A stretch of DNA of 11,205 nucleotides from a virus (Duplodnaviria > Heunggongvirae > Uroviricota > Caudoviricetes): the IMG/VR virus record IMGVR_UViG_2711768052_000003, positions 1-11,205 of that record; one strand, given 5' to 3'. A model generated the notes under the pieces. That model was not told the origin of the DNA and ran no database searches. It saw nothing but the letters and a program-made list of their open reading frames with translations. The position numbers and the translations under genes were made by a program. This document shows, one piece after another, positions 22 through 11,205 of this stretch (positions are counted from its first letter, which is position 1; every line of letters starts with the position of its first letter).

Positions 22-75
22 TGGCCGTTTCCGGCCTGCATGGCATGATTTGCGCTTTTGGACGGGAGATTCAGC

Positions 76-675
76 GTGCTGATTGGCTATGTAAGGGTAT
101 CAACAAATGACCAGAATACAGACTTGCAACGAAACGCTCTTGTTTGTGCAGGATGCGAACAAATATTTGAAGATAAATTAAGCGGGACAAAGACAGACCG
201 ACCGGGATTAAAACGCGCTTTAAAGCGCCTTCAAAAAGGTGACACGCTGGTTGTCTGGAAACTGGATCGCCTCGGGCGAAGCATGAAACATCTGATTTCT
301 CTCGTCGGGGAACTACGGGAGCGAGGGATTAATTTTCGCAGTCTGACCGACAGCATAGATACATCTTCTCCAATGGGGCGTTTTTTCTTCCACGTGATGG
401 GTGCCCTGGCTGAAATGGAACGTGAATTAATTGTTGAACGTACACTGGCCGGACTGGCGGCAGCGCGCGCACGGGGGCGCACAGGCGGACGTCGACCGAA
501 GCTGACAAAAGAACAGCATGAGCAAATAGCAAGGCTAATCAAAAACGGGCACGACAGAAAACAACTGGCAATAATTTACGGCATTGGCACATCGACGATT
601 TATCGTTATCACCCTGTAGGCGATATACAGACTGAAGAAACAACCGGGCAGACTCAGGAAAATGAAAACCGCTAA
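76..675 (+). CDS. Site-specific serine DNA invertase, Gin/Pin/Hin/Cin family
   Basis: The translation MLIGYVRVSTNDQNTDLQRNAL...VVWKLDRLGRS...GINFRSLTDSIDTSS.MGRFFFHVMGALAEMERELI has the catalytic Ser at position 9, the resolvase/invertase core and a C-terminal HTH (IYGIGTSTIYRY). GGGAGA at 64-69 is a plausible RBS for GTG at 76. The track ORF begins at TTG 58, which I consider less likely. Confidence 0.9.
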   Translation: MLIGYVRVSTNDQNTDLQRNALVCAGCEQIFEDKLSGTKTDRPGLKRALKRLQKGDTLVVWKLDRLGRSMKHLISLVGELRERGINFRSLTDSIDTSSPMGRFFFHVMGALAEMERELIVERTLAGLAAARARGRTGGRRPKLTKEQHEQIARLIKNGHDRKQLAIIYGIGTSTIYRYHPVGDIQTEETTGQTQENENR

Positions 676-7546: not shown

Positions 7547-7934
7547 GCAATTTTGATACATTAGATTAAACATGGGCGCAACACTTACGACACAGAGTAA
7601 ACCTGATCTGCCAGTCACTTCTGCACCAAGAGCGAAAATTTATGACAGCGCTATGTGTTTATCTCCCCGAAAAGCTCAGTCAAATAGTAATTTGTCAAAT
7701 CCCCACTCAGTATCAATAGAGATAGTTGACCGAGTGTGCTCAAAGCCATACCTGCCACGATGAGCTTTGCATAACAGACTTGTTTTTTTAGGTGATTTTC
7801 GTTATAAATTTTCAGCGTTGCTTAGATGTTATGTGTTTATGCTCAATATGCAAATTTTGAGTTTTTTGTGGCTATATTATAACATTAATAGCAACATCTC
7901 TATGATTGCTTTATTTAAATGGATGAATTTGAAA

Positions 7935-10037
7935 ATGAGAGCATATCATAATGACCAACCTATACTAGGCGGTCAAAATGATCCAGACTTACTAAATAGA
8001 CTTACCTTTGCAAATAATTTGGCAAATATTTTACTATTAAATAACGACGATGATTGTTTCACTGTATCTATAGAGGCTGAGTGGGGATATGGTAAAACGT
8101 CAGTCATAAATCTTATAAAAAATGCCTTAAATGAAAAGGACTCCTTACCCATTATAATAGAATATAATCCATGGTTGGCTGGCCAACCTGAATCCTTGAT
8201 TCAAGATTTTTTATTGCAGTTTTCTTCACAACTAAATATTAAAGACAAATCAAAAGTTGCATTAAAAGTATCAAAAGAGCTAATTGCATACTCTAGCCTC
8301 TTTAGTGCTGCTAAACTTATCCCTGGAGCAGAACCATGGGCATCTATCATAGAAAAATCTCTTTCAAGATTTGGACATGCTACTAAAAAAATAGCTGAGT
8401 TAAAAAAACTTGATCTTTTAGATAGAAAAAAACAAGTGGCTAATGCGATAAAAAAAATAAAACATCCTATAATTGTAATAATTGATGACATTGATCGTTT
8501 AACACCCTCTGAGGCTTTTCAAGTTTTACGGTTAGTCAAAGCTGTTGCGAATTTCTCAGGCACTTCTTTTTTACTTGCATTTGATCCTAATTACCTAATT
8601 TCTGTGCTTGATAAAAATAACATTATAAATCCGTCAGAATATATTAATAAGATTGTTCAACTTCGAGTTTCACTTCCCGTAATTTCAGAAAGAGGACTGA
8701 ATGAAATCGCAAATTCAGAGCTTGAAAAACTAGGTGATAGTTTTTTAACTGATAAATTTGAAAAAGATCAAGAAAGATTAGATTGGATTTACCATAATTA
8801 TTTCAAGCAATTAATTAATAATCCAAGAGAGTTGAAAAGGTTTTTCAACCACTTGAGATTTACTTTAGAGCAAATTAAAGGTCAGGTGTGTTCTTCAGAT
8901 CTTTTTTCTTTATCTCTAATCGCAACCAAATCAAATTTAATTTATGAGCATATAAAGAATACTCCTGAAGCGTACATTGGGAATAGATTAACCATCAATA
9001 ATTTGTTAATGAATAAACATCAAGATATTATAAAGCATTATAGCCATGAACGATGCAATAAACTAAATATTTTTTCTCAACGAGAACGTACATTGATGCA
9101 GGGGCTATTAGAGTATATTTTCCCTCTTCTACGCCCCAATCAATCTTATCCTTATGATGTATCTGATTCAGATGCAGCAGGAAGAATTTCTGCCCCCCAA
9201 AGACTTCATATTGCCCTTCATTTTAAAACTCCAGTAGGATATATTTCCGATCATGACATTCTTCTTTTCATCGAAGGGAAAATTAATAGAGAAAAATTCC
9301 TTGAGGATGTGTTATCTCAAAATGCCGAGGAAAGATTTTTCGAAATGATGAATATTTATACAGACGCTTGTTGTAAAGTTGATAGTTTTAATATATTAAC
9401 GTGCATTTATGATAGATTTCTTTTCTCTCAAGAGTTAAAATCTTCATTAGAAAAAAACTATGGTCTCATTAGAGAAGATTCTTATAGAAGGATGTATTGG
9501 CTCACTGATAAAATTATATCTGAAAGTAGTGAGCAATATGAGCTAATAAAAAAAATTATTGGTCGATATGAGAATGCGCCACTTGGAGCAGAAGTACTAT
9601 ACAACGTACGAAACTCAAGTAATATACAGATTAATAAAGATCAGATTGTTGAACTTGAGAATGTCTTCAAAGAAACAGCTACTATTGCTTTAAATAAAAA
9701 AATATTTTTTGACTATCATCTAGAATCAAATATATTTTTCGAATTAAAGAGAATCTCTGTTGAATTCACATCAGAATTTCTTGCTTCCATCTTATCAGAA
9801 GATGGCATAATTAGATTGTGTGAAATTATTGGTGAAACTGGTAGAGATTCAACGAATGGCCCTTATGTTATTTTTGACGAACATTATTTTGGGGAAATAC
9901 TTGATGTAGATGAGGTTAGAAATAAAGCTAAAAACATAGATATTTCAAAGCATCCGACTCGCATTCAAGCTGTACTTAAGAGCATTGCAGATGGAAAAAA
10001 ATATTATTTAAGAGATGCAACAATTAGCTTAAAATAG
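7935..10037 (+). CDS. KAP-family P-loop NTPase; candidate anti-phage/exclusion protein
   Basis: Walker A is AEWGYGKTS (8082-8102), followed by the KAP-typical NPW (IIIEYNPW), Walker B IIVIIDDIDRL (8472-8501), LLAFD, and an NPRELKRFFN motif (8820-8849). About 300 C-terminal residues carry no motif I recognise. The gene is strongly AT-rich against GC-rich flanks. The start is ambiguous: in-frame ATGs at 7902, 7923 and 7935, none with a strong SD (GGA 9 nt before 7935); the track ORF begins at TTG 7767. Confidence 0.7.
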   Translation: MRAYHNDQPILGGQNDPDLLNRLTFANNLANILLLNNDDDCFTVSIEAEWGYGKTSVINLIKNALNEKDSLPIIIEYNPWLAGQPESLIQDFLLQFSSQLNIKDKSKVALKVSKELIAYSSLFSAAKLIPGAEPWASIIEKSLSRFGHATKKIAELKKLDLLDRKKQVANAIKKIKHPIIVIIDDIDRLTPSEAFQVLRLVKAVANFSGTSFLLAFDPNYLISVLDKNNIINPSEYINKIVQLRVSLPVISERGLNEIANSELEKLGDSFLTDKFEKDQERLDWIYHNYFKQLINNPRELKRFFNHLRFTLEQIKGQVCSSDLFSLSLIATKSNLIYEHIKNTPEAYIGNRLTINNLLMNKHQDIIKHYSHERCNKLNIFSQRERTLMQGLLEYIFPLLRPNQSYPYDVSDSDAAGRISAPQRLHIALHFKTPVGYISDHDILLFIEGKINREKFLEDVLSQNAEERFFEMMNIYTDACCKVDSFNILTCIYDRFLFSQELKSSLEKNYGLIREDSYRRMYWLTDKIISESSEQYELIKKIIGRYENAPLGAEVLYNVRNSSNIQINKDQIVELENVFKETATIALNKKIFFDYHLESNIFFELKRISVEFTSEFLASILSEDGIIRLCEIIGETGRDSTNGPYVIFDEHYFGEILDVDEVRNKAKNIDISKHPTRIQAVLKSIADGKKYYLRDATISLK

Positions 10038-10589: not shown

Positions 10590-10649
10590 CAGGCAGAATT
10601 GCCGGAGCAACAAAAAAGCGATAGATTACGCGCGGGTGCCTTTCGGCTG

Positions 10650-10862
10650 ATGGTCGGAGGGAATACCCGAAGGCCAGATGTGGAAAGGCCCCGGAAAACA
10701 TCTCTGTTTAACCGAGGCCCTAACCGCATTACCTTGACAAGTGAAAGGTTAGCGCCTCTCCGGAAAAGGAGCAAGTGCTATGTCGCAAAAATCGCTTACG
10801 GCCATCACGTTCTGTGTGACGGCAATCCTCATCATCTGGATGTTGCACGGTTCGCTGTGTGA
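10650..10862 (+). CDS. Possible mok-like overlapping leader ORF of the hok locus
   Basis: A 70-codon frame from ATG 10650 overlaps the 5' two-thirds of the hok-like ORF in another frame and ends inside it, as mok does in hok/sok loci. It has no strong SD, and the track ORF begins at TTG 10599. Confidence 0.3.
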   Translation: MVGGNTRRPDVERPRKTSLFNRGPNRITLTSERLAPLRKRSKCYVAKIAYGHHVLCDGNPHHLDVARFAV

Positions 10863-10920
10863 AATACGGATGAGCTTCTGGGGAGCGGAGTTTGCGGCGT
10901 TCTTACAGTGTAAGCAGTAA
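10780..10920 (+). CDS. Hok/Gef-family type I toxin (small membrane peptide)
   Basis: A 46-aa ORF, MSQKSLTAITFCVTAILIIWMLHGSLCEIRMSFWGAEFAAFLQCKQ, has an N-terminal hydrophobic helix and the SLCEIR...E.AAF motif, which aligns without gaps to Hok (…[21 protein letters not shown]…) and HokA as I recall them. AAAGGAG RBS at 10765-10771. It is below the length cutoff of the supplied ORF track. Confidence 0.7.
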   Translation: MSQKSLTAITFCVTAILIIWMLHGSLCEIRMSFWGAEFAAFLQCKQ

Positions 10921-11008
10921 GGAAACCGCGACGGGGGAGCTATCCCCCGTCAATCGGTTGCCAAGGTAGGGCCGGATAAGGCACCCTATCTCACAGATAT
11001 GAACAACA

Positions 11009-11041
11009 AACCCGCAGCGTAAAAACTGCGGGTTTTCTTTT
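11009..11041 (+). terminator. Rho-independent terminator, likely the 3' end of the hok-like transcript
   Basis: Stem ACCCGCAG (11009-11016), loop CGTAAAAA, stem CTGCGGGT (11025-11032), followed by TTTCTTTTT. Confidence 0.55.
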
Positions 11042-11205
11042 TGGTGCCCTCACCGACTTGAAACAGTGATCAGACTATAAGACAAAGCCCGCAATGTAGC
11101 GGGCTTACTCCCCTCACCCTACACTGAATGTGGACACACAGTGGAACGAAGAGGCATAAGATATTATAAATCAATCAGTTATTGAAAGAAAAAAGGCCGC
11201 AGAGC

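What the first reader, a model, noticed from the sequence alone, without database searches (positions are those of the whole stretch)
10599..11041. Unlisted hok/mok-like type I toxin-antitoxin locus downstream of ogr
A 46-codon ORF with a strong RBS encodes a Hok-like peptide (hydrophobic helix plus the SLCEIR...E.AAF motif). It is overlapped out of frame by a longer upstream ORF, as mok overlaps hok. A strong GC hairpin lies 10 nt after the stop (10931-10950, ACGGGGGA/TCCCCCGT), and a terminator about 120 nt downstream would define a structured 3' UTR like the fold-back region of hok mRNAs. No Sok-like antisense promoter was located on the minus strand, so it is unclear whether the locus is functional or belongs to the prophage or the host.
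Basis: partly seen in the sequence, partly recalled or inferred. Interest (0 to 1): 0.5.

Follow-up and report, generated by a model that had tools for sequence, protein, structure and literature searches.

The report
Known Hok/Sok toxin locus in prophage
The 46-codon gene is a real Hok-family membrane toxin with its regulatory RNA elements, sitting at the right end of a P2-like (P88-type) E. coli prophage, but it is already annotated in thousands of genomes and is ordinary.

Summary
ORF 10780-10920 encodes a 46-aa peptide that passes Pfam's Hok/Gef threshold; 9 shuffles of it do not. The exact protein (WP_000078916.1) is annotated "Hok/Gef family protein" in RefSeq. The 421-nt locus occurs in 1757 of 5426 complete E. 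coli genomes and in free P88-type phages.

The RNA anatomy is collinear with hok/sok of plasmid R1:
- a promoter at 10599-10627;
- an mRNA of about 10634-11042 whose 5' end pairs with 10971-10986 (tac/fbi) in the full-length fold, and with 10685-10692 (tac/ucb) once the 3' end is removed;
- a protective hairpin after the stop codon;
- a terminator.

The same -10 hexamer sits at the homologous place as the one mutated in the tested sokW promoter.

Two corrections. The long overlapping "mok-like" ORF is not conserved: 21 of 46 leader variants have no start codon in that frame. The locus also belongs to the prophage, because the attR core lies at 11185-11205.

Nothing here is new in kind. The only mildly novel point is that this HokA-like subfamily may work without mok.

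The parts
10599..10627 (+). Predicted hok promoter: -35 TTGCCG (10599-10604), 17-nt spacer, -10 TAGATT (10622-10627); transcription start about 10634
   Evidence: Read from the sequence. A TTGnnn-17-TAnAnT pattern stays at a fixed distance from GGGTGCC even where the surrounding sequence has diverged: lambdoid, ykgM-island, E. albertii and other copies. It scores 8 of 12, below the scan's threshold. Transcription was not tested.
10634..11042 (+). Predicted full-length hok mRNA (about 409 nt)
   Evidence: The 5' end is set by the first position of the Rfam RF01794 match and by the R1 control. The 3' end is set by the terminator. The fold has MFE -177.8 kcal/mol with the two ends paired.
10634..10647 (+). 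tac element: the 5' end, GGGUGCCUUUCGGC
   Evidence: It pairs with 10971-10986 in the full-length fold (P 0.93-0.997 for the first 8 pairs). It pairs with 10685-10692 in 3'-truncated folds. It is nearly invariant in 39 relatives.
10685..10692 (+). ucb / anti-SD box (AAGGCCCC)
   Evidence: It is the alternative partner of the 5' end in truncated folds; that helix is 98.9% paired across relatives. In the full-length fold, the overlapping GGCCCCGG (10687-10694) pairs with CCGAGGCC at 10712-10719.
10678..10739 (-). Predicted Sok antisense RNA (about 60 nt; ends are +/- a few nt)
   Evidence: The 5' end was placed 6-8 nt after the -10 hexamer, by analogy with sokC as annotated in K-12. The RNA folds into a single-stranded 5' tail plus a GC-rich hairpin followed by UUUCC: -28.5 kcal/mol, z = -3.2. 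No transcript data.
10746..10774 (-). Predicted Sok promoter: -35 TTGCTC (complement of 10769-10774), 17-nt spacer, -10 TAACCT (complement of 10746-10751)
   Evidence: TAACCT is present in all 95 copies examined, and the -35 is TTGCTC, TTGACT, TTGCTG or TTGCCT. sokW of Sp5 has TAACCT at the same place. The published promoter-less mutant primer YO-421 replaces exactly this hexamer (PMC8621323). R1 has TATCCT and TTGCGC at the homologous positions.
10714..10758 (+). Sok-target hairpin of the truncated mRNA: GAGGC..CUAACC / GGUUAG..GCCUC (the 'mok SD'/dcb stem of R1)
   Evidence: It forms only in truncated folds and is 98.6% paired in relatives (helix 6). It aligns to the corresponding stem of RF01794.
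10766..10771 (+). hok Shine-Dalgarno sequence, AAGGAG
   Evidence: It lies 8 nt before the ATG. It sits inside an 11-bp hairpin with CUCC/GCGC (10751-10781) in the full-length fold and in the fold with the Sok target blocked. In the truncated fold only tiny helices involve it.
10780..10920 (+). hok coding sequence, 46 aa plus stop
   Evidence: Pfam PF01848 scores 29.9 bits against a cut-off of 22. The protein is identical to WP_000078916.1, 'Hok/Gef family protein'. All residues conserved across the family (C, T, LCE, E, second C) are present at the right spacing.
10929..10952 (+). Post-stop GC hairpin, the homologue of the protective 3' stem-loop of truncated hok mRNA
   Evidence: It is 98% paired, with 4 pairs showing compensatory changes among relatives (helix 16). 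It is collinear with the GGCGGGC..GCCCGCC hairpin of R1.
10971..10986 (+). fbi (fold-back inhibition) element; core AAGGCACCC at 10978-10986
   Evidence: It is the partner of the 5' end in the full-length fold. The helix is 94.9% paired in 39 relatives, and every change in the fbi core (GGCACCC) is C-to-U, which keeps a G-U pair. Homology between loci ends about 10 nt after this element.
11008..11042 (+). Intrinsic terminator of hok mRNA (AAACCCGCAG..CUGCGGGUUU plus a U-run)
   Evidence: It is present in phages P88 and Chuche. In other prophage backbones it is replaced by unrelated hairpin plus T-run sequences.
10599..10862 (+). 87-codon ORF overlapping hok out of frame; judged a chance open frame, not a conserved mok
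   Evidence: The frame is closed or lacks a start codon in 21 of 46 leader variants. Its stop at +80 is a by-product of the Leu-Cys-Glu codons and disappears when TGT becomes TGC.
11185..11205 (.). attR core (context only): the ihfA terminator AAAGAAAAAAGGCCGCAGAGC, which runs off the window
   Evidence: The same 21 bp is repeated next to btuC at the other prophage end in strain 100181, and occurs once between btuC and ihfA in K-12.

Best explanation
This is an intact hok/sok-type type I toxin-antitoxin cassette carried as the last gene module of a P88-type (Xuanwuvirus, P2-like) prophage. The prophage is integrated at the ihfA terminator.

Inferred mechanism, by homology with R1 hok/sok and hokW/sokW:
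1. A constitutive promoter (10599-10627) makes a stable mRNA of about 409 nt.
2. The extreme 5' end of that mRNA (tac) pairs with the fbi box near its 3' end. This locks the leader so that the hok Shine-Dalgarno sequence sits inside a hairpin.
3. Slow 3' trimming back to the GC hairpin after the stop codon removes fbi.
4. The 5' end then switches to the ucb box, the GAGGC/GCCUC target hairpin forms, and the message becomes translatable.
5. A short-lived antisense Sok RNA of about 60 nt is made from the minus strand (TTGCTC-17-TAACCT). It pairs with the target region, blocks expression and probably triggers RNase III cleavage.
6. When Sok synthesis stops, the 46-aa Hok inserts into the inner membrane and kills or depolarises the cell.

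What is shown here: family membership of the peptide, leader homology, both alternative 5'-end pairings in silico and their conservation, promoter motifs at homologous positions, and residence in the prophage.

What is inferred: transcription, processing, Sok action, toxicity and the biological role. The role could be prophage retention, exclusion of other phages, or help with lysis on induction.
For: Peptide:
- Pfam HOK_GEF passes its threshold, with 0 of 9 shuffles hitting the family.
- It is 43% identical to K-12 HokA and 27-30% identical to HokC, R1 Hok and HokW, with the invariant residues C, T, LCE, E, A and F.
- The exact sequence is named Hok/Gef or HokA by public sources and was seen on at least 1000 contigs.

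Leader:
- RF01794 matches 10634-10793 on the hok strand (48.4 bits, E 1e-9).
- An R1-type plasmid control matches the same model on the same strand, from +1 to the hok AUG, at 87.2 bits.

Folding:
- The full-length MFE pairs 10634-10647 with 10971-10986 (P > 0.99).
- Truncated RNAs pair 10634-10642 with 10685-10692 and form the target hairpin.

Conservation in 39 distinct relatives:
- The full-length structure is 92.6% paired, against 37-46% when partners are slid. It has 37 pairs with compensatory changes, against 12-23 in the slid controls.
- The truncated structure is 95.9% paired.

Promoters: both are conserved in position across divergent contexts. The Sok -10 is identical to the hexamer replaced in the published sokW promoter-less mutant.

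Selection: among DNA-selected P2-type copies there are 5 synonymous changes and 1 non-synonymous change.

Prophage residence.

Precedents: hokW/sokW in prophage Sp5 is an experimentally proven type I TA (PMC8621323). 42 of 45 tested Hok homologues were toxic, and hok is enriched in prophages (bioRxiv 10.1101/2025.08.07.668861).
Against: - The Rfam score is below the family's gathering threshold (48.4 against 59).
- Both promoters are weak matches to the consensus (8 of 12 and 6 of 12) and were not found by the scan. Their conservation could partly reflect RNA-structure constraints on the same bases.
- No conserved mok frame exists, so the canonical mok-coupled step of the R1 model cannot apply as such.
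- Folding predicts only a modest change in SD accessibility between states.
- The tested structure was derived from the window's own sequence, which inflates 'cells paired' relative to the slid controls.
- The tac/fbi helix shows only one-sided (G-C to G-U) changes, with no double compensations.
- No transcript, processing or toxicity data exist for this locus.
- The larger synonymous-to-non-synonymous count (16:2) is biased, because the IMG/VR loci were chosen by protein identity.
Confidence: 0.88

Rival explanations
1. It is a canonical mok-dependent hok locus. The overlapping ORF (10599-10862, or a shorter version starting at ATG 10650, GTG 10680 or TTG 10734) is a real Mok. Its translation is needed to open the hok ribosome-binding site, and it is the true target of Sok, as in R1.
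For: The ORF is open in this window and in about half of the leader variants. From ATG 10650 it would be 70 codons, the same length as the annotated mokW reading frame of Sp5 (213 nt). The GAGGC box at 10714-10718 aligns with the mok SD of R1 and hokW.
Against: 21 of 46 distinct leader variants, including free phages P88 and Chuche, have a stop at -43, -28, -16 or -76 and no ATG, GTG or TTG in that frame. No start codon lies 5-10 nt after GAGG in the window; the nearest are AUU at 10728 and TTG at 10734, 16 nt away. ATG 10650 lies inside the tac stem, far upstream of the Sok target. The frame's stop codon also varies (TGA or CGA at +80). hokW keeps GAGG-7 nt-ATG and a 70-aa frame, so loss of this arrangement here is real and not an alignment artefact.
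Confidence: 0.1
2. It is a decayed, non-functional hok relic, like the K-12 chromosomal hok copies that are disrupted by IS elements. It is carried passively by the prophage.
For: K-12 hokA and hokC are flanked or truncated by IS150 and IS186. The promoters here are weak matches to the consensus. The mok frame is not maintained.
Against: The ORF is intact and the protein is identical across many prophage backbones, with mainly synonymous DNA change. Every RNA element is kept, and some helices show compensatory changes. The cassette has spread to P2-like prophages, lambdoid prophages and island contexts as a unit that ends just after fbi. No IS or rearrangement lies within 10599-11042.
Confidence: 0.07
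3. This rival concerns the biological role. Rather than stabilising the prophage by post-segregational killing, the cassette may act as an abortive-infection or exclusion module against other phages, or as a lysis helper on induction as hokW/sokW does.
For: R1 hok/sok reduces T4 plating, and hokW/sokW speeds lysis and doubles Sp5 release (PMC8621323). In this window the cassette is the second gene downstream of a low-GC insertion encoding a PifA-like KAP NTPase, a known defence protein family; ogr lies between them. The position is next to attR, a typical moron site.
Against: There are no data for this locus. A large survey found hok not enriched near defence systems (section title of 10.1101/2025.08.07.668861). 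The PifA-like gene is absent from most relatives that carry hok.
Confidence: 0.4

Closest known systems
hok/sok (parB) of plasmid R1
   Same: The order of elements is the same: promoter; a 5' tac element starting GG(G/C)(U)GC; the ucb box; a hairpin that is the Sok terminator on the other strand; the GAGGC box; the dcb and Sok -10; AAGGAG; hok; a GC hairpin after the stop; fbi complementary to the 5' end; terminator. Both match the same Rfam model, and the Sok promoter is at the same position (R1 TTGCGC/TATCCT; here TTGCTC/TAACCT).
   Different: The peptides are only about 30% identical, and this one is 46 aa against 52. The leader scores 48 bits against 87. There is no conserved mok frame. 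The tac/ucb helix is stronger (7 bp plus one bulged U). The element is a prophage, not a plasmid.
hokW/sokW of Stx2 prophage Sp5 / 933W (Takada et al. 2021, PMC8621323)
   Same: It is a prophage-borne hok/sok. The Sok -10 hexamer TAACCT is identical and sits within the AGGTTAGC(G)CCTC box. The leader architecture is the same. It has been shown experimentally to be a type I TA.
   Different: It belongs to a different Hok subfamily: 51 aa and 30% identity. hokW has an intact 70-aa mokW with GAGG-7 nt-ATG. It sits in a lambdoid phage at a different genome position. The label 'MokW-like host killing' on P88 and Chuche records is an annotation transfer, not orthology.
HokA of E. coli K-12 (NCBIfam NF007290)
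   Same: It is the closest characterised Hok: 43% identity, with shared W-M, SLCE and AAFL.CK motifs. It is also the best NCBIfam hit.
   Different: The score of 34 bits is far below the equivalog cut-off of 89, so this is not HokA itself. It is 46 aa against 50, and mobile rather than at the fixed cspA-linked chromosomal site.
The same 46-aa Hok subfamily in lambdoid prophages (next to lom or J) and the ykgM island of O157:H7
   Same: The same cassette is present, from the promoter through fbi, at 74-82% nucleotide identity. All helices are kept and several show compensatory changes.
   Different: The host elements and terminators differ, and the peptides are 48-74% identical.

Membership tests
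Hok/Gef toxin family (Pfam PF01848) | A peptide of about 50 aa that scores above the family's curated threshold | tested here: met
   29.9 bits against a cut-off of 22, E 4.1e-7, covering profile positions 5-42 of 42. None of 9 shuffles hit the family.
Hok/Gef toxin family (Pfam PF01848) | Residues conserved in more than 80% of 1264 Hok peptides (M1, C16, T18, L30, C31, E32, E41), at the right spacing | tested here: met
   The residues are M1, C12, T14, L26, C27, E28 and E37, with spacing identical to the published logo, plus the second Cys (C44).
hok/sok type I TA locus (R1 paradigm; Rfam RF01794) | An mRNA leader homologous to the hok leader model | tested here: inconclusive
   The match covers the full model length on the hok strand with E 1.1e-9, but scores 48.4 bits against a gathering score of 59. 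The R1-type control scores 87.2 bits.
hok/sok type I TA locus (R1 paradigm; Rfam RF01794) | The 5' end (tac) is complementary to a 3' fbi element, closing the full-length mRNA | tested here: met
   A perfect 8-bp core, extended to 14 pairs, forms in the MFE structure with P > 0.99. The helix is 94.9% paired in 39 relatives, with one-sided changes only. This is in silico only.
hok/sok type I TA locus (R1 paradigm; Rfam RF01794) | Alternative tac/ucb pairing and a target hairpin form after 3' truncation | tested here: met
   Truncated folds switch the 5' end to 10685-10692 and form the hairpin at 10714-10758. These are 98.9% and 98.6% paired in relatives. This is in silico only.
hok/sok type I TA locus (R1 paradigm; Rfam RF01794) | A cis-antisense Sok gene with its own promoter, overlapping the leader | tested here: met
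   TTGCTC-17-TAACCT lies at the position homologous to the R1 and sokW promoters. The -10 is invariant in 95 copies. The predicted RNA folds as a tail plus hairpin, z = -3.2. This rests on sequence and homology only; expression was not tested.
hok/sok type I TA locus (R1 paradigm; Rfam RF01794) | A mok reading frame that overlaps the hok start, begins just after the Sok-target SD, and is translationally coupled to hok | tested here: not met
   An ORF is open in this window, but it has no start codon 5-10 nt after GAGG. The frame is closed or lacks a start in 21 of 46 leader variants, including P88 and Chuche.
hok/sok type I TA locus (R1 paradigm; Rfam RF01794) | A stable stem-loop after the stop codon (the 3' end of the processed mRNA), with a terminator downstream of fbi | tested here: met
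   The hairpin at 10929-10952 shows 4 compensatory pairs, and the terminator lies at 11008-11042.
hok/sok type I TA locus (R1 paradigm; Rfam RF01794) | Hok is toxic to the membrane, Sok neutralises it, and the mRNA is processed at its 3' end | not testable with these tools
   Only precedents are available: hokW/sokW, and 42 of 45 Hok homologues found toxic.
HokA equivalog (NCBIfam NF007290) | A score above the equivalog cut-off | tested here: not met
   34 bits against a cut-off of 89. The relationship is HokA-like, not HokA.

The most novel reading that the evidence does not exclude
This 46-aa, HokA-like subfamily, which is spread among P2-like prophages, lambdoid prophages and islands, may be a naturally mok-less hok/sok variant. 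In this reading, the dcb box GCGCCUCUCC toggles directly between the hok Shine-Dalgarno sequence (in full-length and Sok-bound RNA) and the upstream GAGGC box (in processed RNA). Sok would then control hok translation by structure switching, without a leader peptide.
Probability: 0.35. Interest if true: 0.3.

Novelty: already known. Interest (0 to 1): 0.12.

Why it matters
This mainly serves as quality control. The gene is real and should appear in any annotation of this prophage, but it adds nothing new in kind. Hok/Gef genes of exactly this sequence are annotated in RefSeq and in phage records, and the enrichment of hok in prophages has been published.

Three modest points of value remain:
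- The full regulatory anatomy (promoters, tac, ucb, fbi, the Sok gene, terminator) is now mapped for the P88-type copy, which has not been studied experimentally as far as my literature searches show.
- The subfamily offers a natural test of whether mok is dispensable.
- The cassette sits at the very edge of the prophage, where automated provirus boundary calls often cut off its 3' UTR.

Tried and rejected
- Rfam at gathering thresholds found nothing in the window. Only the E-value mode exposed the sub-threshold sok match. The other weak Rfam hits in 10955-11205 (leader peptides, assorted sRNAs; E 0.05-6) merely reflect terminator hairpins and were dismissed.
- The sigma-70 scan found no promoter on either strand. 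I rejected this as evidence of absence, because the R1 and sokW promoters score just as poorly on the -35 hexamer.
- I first suspected that the terminator at 11008-11042 might be the att core or host sequence. I rejected this because it is present in free phages P88 and Chuche and in the ykgM-island copies, and because the true att core is the ihfA terminator.
- I considered a leader ORF starting at ATG 10678 (19 codons) as an alternative mok. It ends 43 nt before hok, and it is missing or differs in length in relatives, so I rejected it.
- PADLOC has no model that hits the Hok peptide.
- The genome-contig scan gave only 6 loci, and 3 of them came from implausible hosts.
- A literature search for hok plus ogr plus prophage found nothing. 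Two papers on P2 defence hotspots do not mention hok.
- A supplement search for the exact peptide failed on term-length rules.
- SD-accessibility calculations gave only a small difference between RNA states. I treat them as weak support only.

Full report
**Observation**

- ORF 10780-10920 (+) encodes MSQKSLTAITFCVTAILIIWMLHGSLCEIRMSFWGAEFAAFLQCKQ.
- AAGGAG lies 8 nt upstream of its ATG.
- An out-of-frame ORF spans 10599-10862.
- The hairpin ACGGGGGA/TCCCCCGT starts 10 nt after the stop codon.
- A hairpin plus T-run terminator lies at 11008-11042.

**Is the peptide a Hok?**

Yes.
- Pfam HOK_GEF scores 29.9 bits against a curated cut-off of 22 (E 4e-7). None of nine shuffles of the peptide hits the family.
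- BLASTP against R1 Hok gives E 5e-7 over the C.T...SLCEIR...E.AAF core.
- An alignment with K-12 HokA and HokC, R1 Hok and HokW keeps M, C, T, LCE, E, A and F invariant. HokA is the nearest, at 43% identity.
- The residues reported as conserved in more than 80% of 1264 Hok peptides are all present with the same spacing (10.1101/2025.08.07.668861).
- NCBIfam's HokA equivalog is hit well below its cut-off (34 bits against 89). The peptide is therefore HokA-like but not HokA.

**Is it already known?**

Yes.
- The window is E. coli DNA. The identical protein, WP_000078916.1, is annotated "Hok/Gef family protein" directly after ogr in RefSeq genomes.
- The exact sequence occurs on at least 1000 contigs under that name.
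- The 421-nt locus is found in 1757 of 5426 complete E. coli genomes.
- Free P2-like phages P88 (Xuanwuvirus) and Chuche carry it between ogr and the integrase region, labelled "MokW-like host killing".
- Copies at 74-82% identity sit next to lom or J in lambdoid prophages and in the ykgM island of O157:H7.

**Prophage or host?**

Prophage. In the 99.6%-identical strain 100181, the element lies between btuC and ihfA, which are adjacent genes in K-12. The 21-bp sequence AAAGAAAAAAGGCCGCAGAGC, part of the ihfA terminator, is present at both ends, at window 11185-11205 and next to btuC. The hok cassette therefore lies about 140 nt inside attR and is the last module of the prophage.

**RNA anatomy**

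Rfam finds nothing at gathering thresholds. In E-value mode, RF01794 ("sok") matches 10634-10793 on the plus strand over the whole model (48.4 bits, E 1e-9). As a control, an R1-type plasmid locus matches the same model on the hok-sense strand, from the mRNA start to the hok AUG, at 87.2 bits. In practice the model describes the hok leader, and the window's leader is a diverged homologue.

Reading the two sequences side by side gives the same order of parts. I list them for the window:
- A promoter: TTGCCG, 17 nt, TAGATT, at 10599-10627.
- A 5' end GGGUGCC at 10634.
- The AAGGCCCC (ucb) box.
- A hairpin that serves as the Sok terminator on the other strand.
- A GAGGC box.
- The AGGUUAGCGCCUC (dcb) box.
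- AAGGAG, then hok.
- A GC hairpin.
- AAGGCACCC (fbi), complementary to the 5' end.
- A terminator.

**Folding**

The predicted full-length RNA (10634-11042) has an MFE structure in which 10634-10647 pair with 10971-10986. The first eight pairs have probability 0.93-0.997. In this fold the hok SD lies in an 11-bp hairpin. When the RNA is cut back to just past the post-stop hairpin (ends at 10955 or 10960), the 5' end pairs instead with 10685-10692, with one bulged U, and the GAGGC...GCCUC hairpin forms. This is the tac/fbi to tac/ucb switch described for R1 (summarised in PMC9841398).

**Conservation of the folds**

I tested both folds on 39 distinct relatives.
- The full-length structure is 92.6% paired, against 37-46% when partners are slid. 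It has 37 pairs with double changes, against 12-23 in the slid controls.
- The truncated structure is 95.9% paired.
- The post-stop hairpin and the terminator carry clear compensatory changes.
- The tac/fbi helix shows only G-C to G-U changes.

One caveat applies: the structure was derived from the window itself, which favours it in these counts.

Homology between loci stops about 10 nt after fbi. Beyond that point, different prophage backbones supply different terminators. This marks the functional 3' edge of the cassette.

**Sok**

The scan found no promoter, but the position homologous to the R1 sok promoter reads, on the minus strand, TTGCTC-17 nt-TAACCT. These are the complements of 10769-10774 and 10746-10751. 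TAACCT is present in all 95 copies I examined, and the -35 is always TTGnnn.

sokW of prophage Sp5 has TAACCT at the same place. The published promoter-less sokW mutant was made with a primer that replaces exactly that hexamer (PMC8621323).

I placed the start 6-8 nt downstream of the -10, as for the annotated sokC of K-12. This gives an RNA of about 60 nt (about 10739 to 10678) with a single-stranded 5' tail and a GC-rich hairpin: -28.5 kcal/mol, z -3.2.

**mok**

The frame overlapping the hok start is open from 10599 in the window. In P88, Chuche, the lambdoid copies and the island copies it is closed at -43, -28 or -76 and contains no start codon. Of 46 distinct leader variants, 21 have no ATG, GTG or TTG in it, and its stop codon also varies. 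No start codon follows the GAGG box at a workable distance. hokW, by contrast, keeps GAGG-7 nt-ATG and a 70-aa mokW. The window's 87-codon ORF is best read as a chance open frame in a structured leader, and its TTG "start" is the -35 of the hok promoter.

**How Sok could act without mok (inference)**

In folds where the Sok target is blocked, the dcb box returns to the hok SD, as in the full-length RNA. The predicted change in SD accessibility is small, so I treat this as a hypothesis only.

**Selection**

Among P2-type copies chosen by DNA similarity, there are five synonymous changes and one non-synonymous change in the coding region. The larger 16:2 count is biased, because the IMG/VR loci were picked by protein identity.

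**Function**

The molecular mechanism is inferred from R1 and from hokW/sokW. The latter is a proven type I TA in which Sok disappears on induction and HokW goes to the inner membrane. The biological role here is open: prophage retention, exclusion of other phages, or help with lysis.

**Verdict**

This is a genuine, apparently intact hok/sok cassette of a known and widely annotated subfamily, at the attR edge of a P88-type prophage. It is ordinary.

Noticed in passing
window 7767-10037 (+); RefSeq start equivalent about 7902: A KAP-family P-loop NTPase (Pfam PF07693, 160 bits) matches PADLOC PifA at 1e-64 over its N-terminal half. It lies between gpD and ogr in a block where GC falls from 0.55 to 0.31. 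The gene is absent at this spot in P88, Chuche and the serS-integrated relative, so it is probably an acquired anti-phage gene at a site that the P2 hotspot papers I checked do not mention in their main text.
   Followed up: partly
window 58-675 (+): A serine recombinase (Resolvase plus HTH_7 domains, 171 bits) lies next to gpU and the tail genes. It may be a Hin/Gin/Cin-type invertase. No inverted repeats or invertible segment were looked for.
   Followed up: no
window 11185-11205; L013 3873-3893: The prophage attachment core is the ihfA transcription terminator (AAAGAAAAAAGGCCGCAGAGC...), duplicated at both prophage ends. Relatives with the same hok cassette sit at serS or next to tRNA genes, so the integration modules are swapped.
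   Followed up: partly
window 11085-11106 (-): A second, minus-strand terminator-like hairpin (AAGCCCGC..GCGGGCTT plus TTGTCTT) lies between the hok terminator and attR, in 140 nt of phage DNA with no ORF assigned. Its purpose is unknown.
   Followed up: no
IMG/VR loci L024, L026, L030 and others (length 841): More than half of the 80 provirus contigs end exactly 3 nt after the hok stop codon. Automated provirus boundaries therefore cut off the hok 3' UTR (hairpin, fbi, terminator) and the true attR.
   Followed up: no
L014, L015, L018: Assemblies labelled Planococcaceae MAG, Vagococcus sp. and Xanthomonas pisi carry this E. coli-type hok at 72-98% protein identity, on short or odd contigs. 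They are most likely contamination.
   Followed up: no
L005 (plasmid pMTY1886_IncFII) 445-659: In this R1-type hok locus, the ATG at the mok position is in frame with hok and the usual mok frame has no start. RefSeq annotates only a truncated hok CDS (558-659). This is a possible natural mok variant or a fused Mok-Hok.
   Followed up: no
window 10678-10737 (+): A 19-codon leader ORF (MWKGPGKHLCLTEALTALP) starts at an ATG that is nearly invariant because it lies in the tac/ucb stem. Its length and frame differ between relatives, so it is probably not translated.
   Followed up: partly
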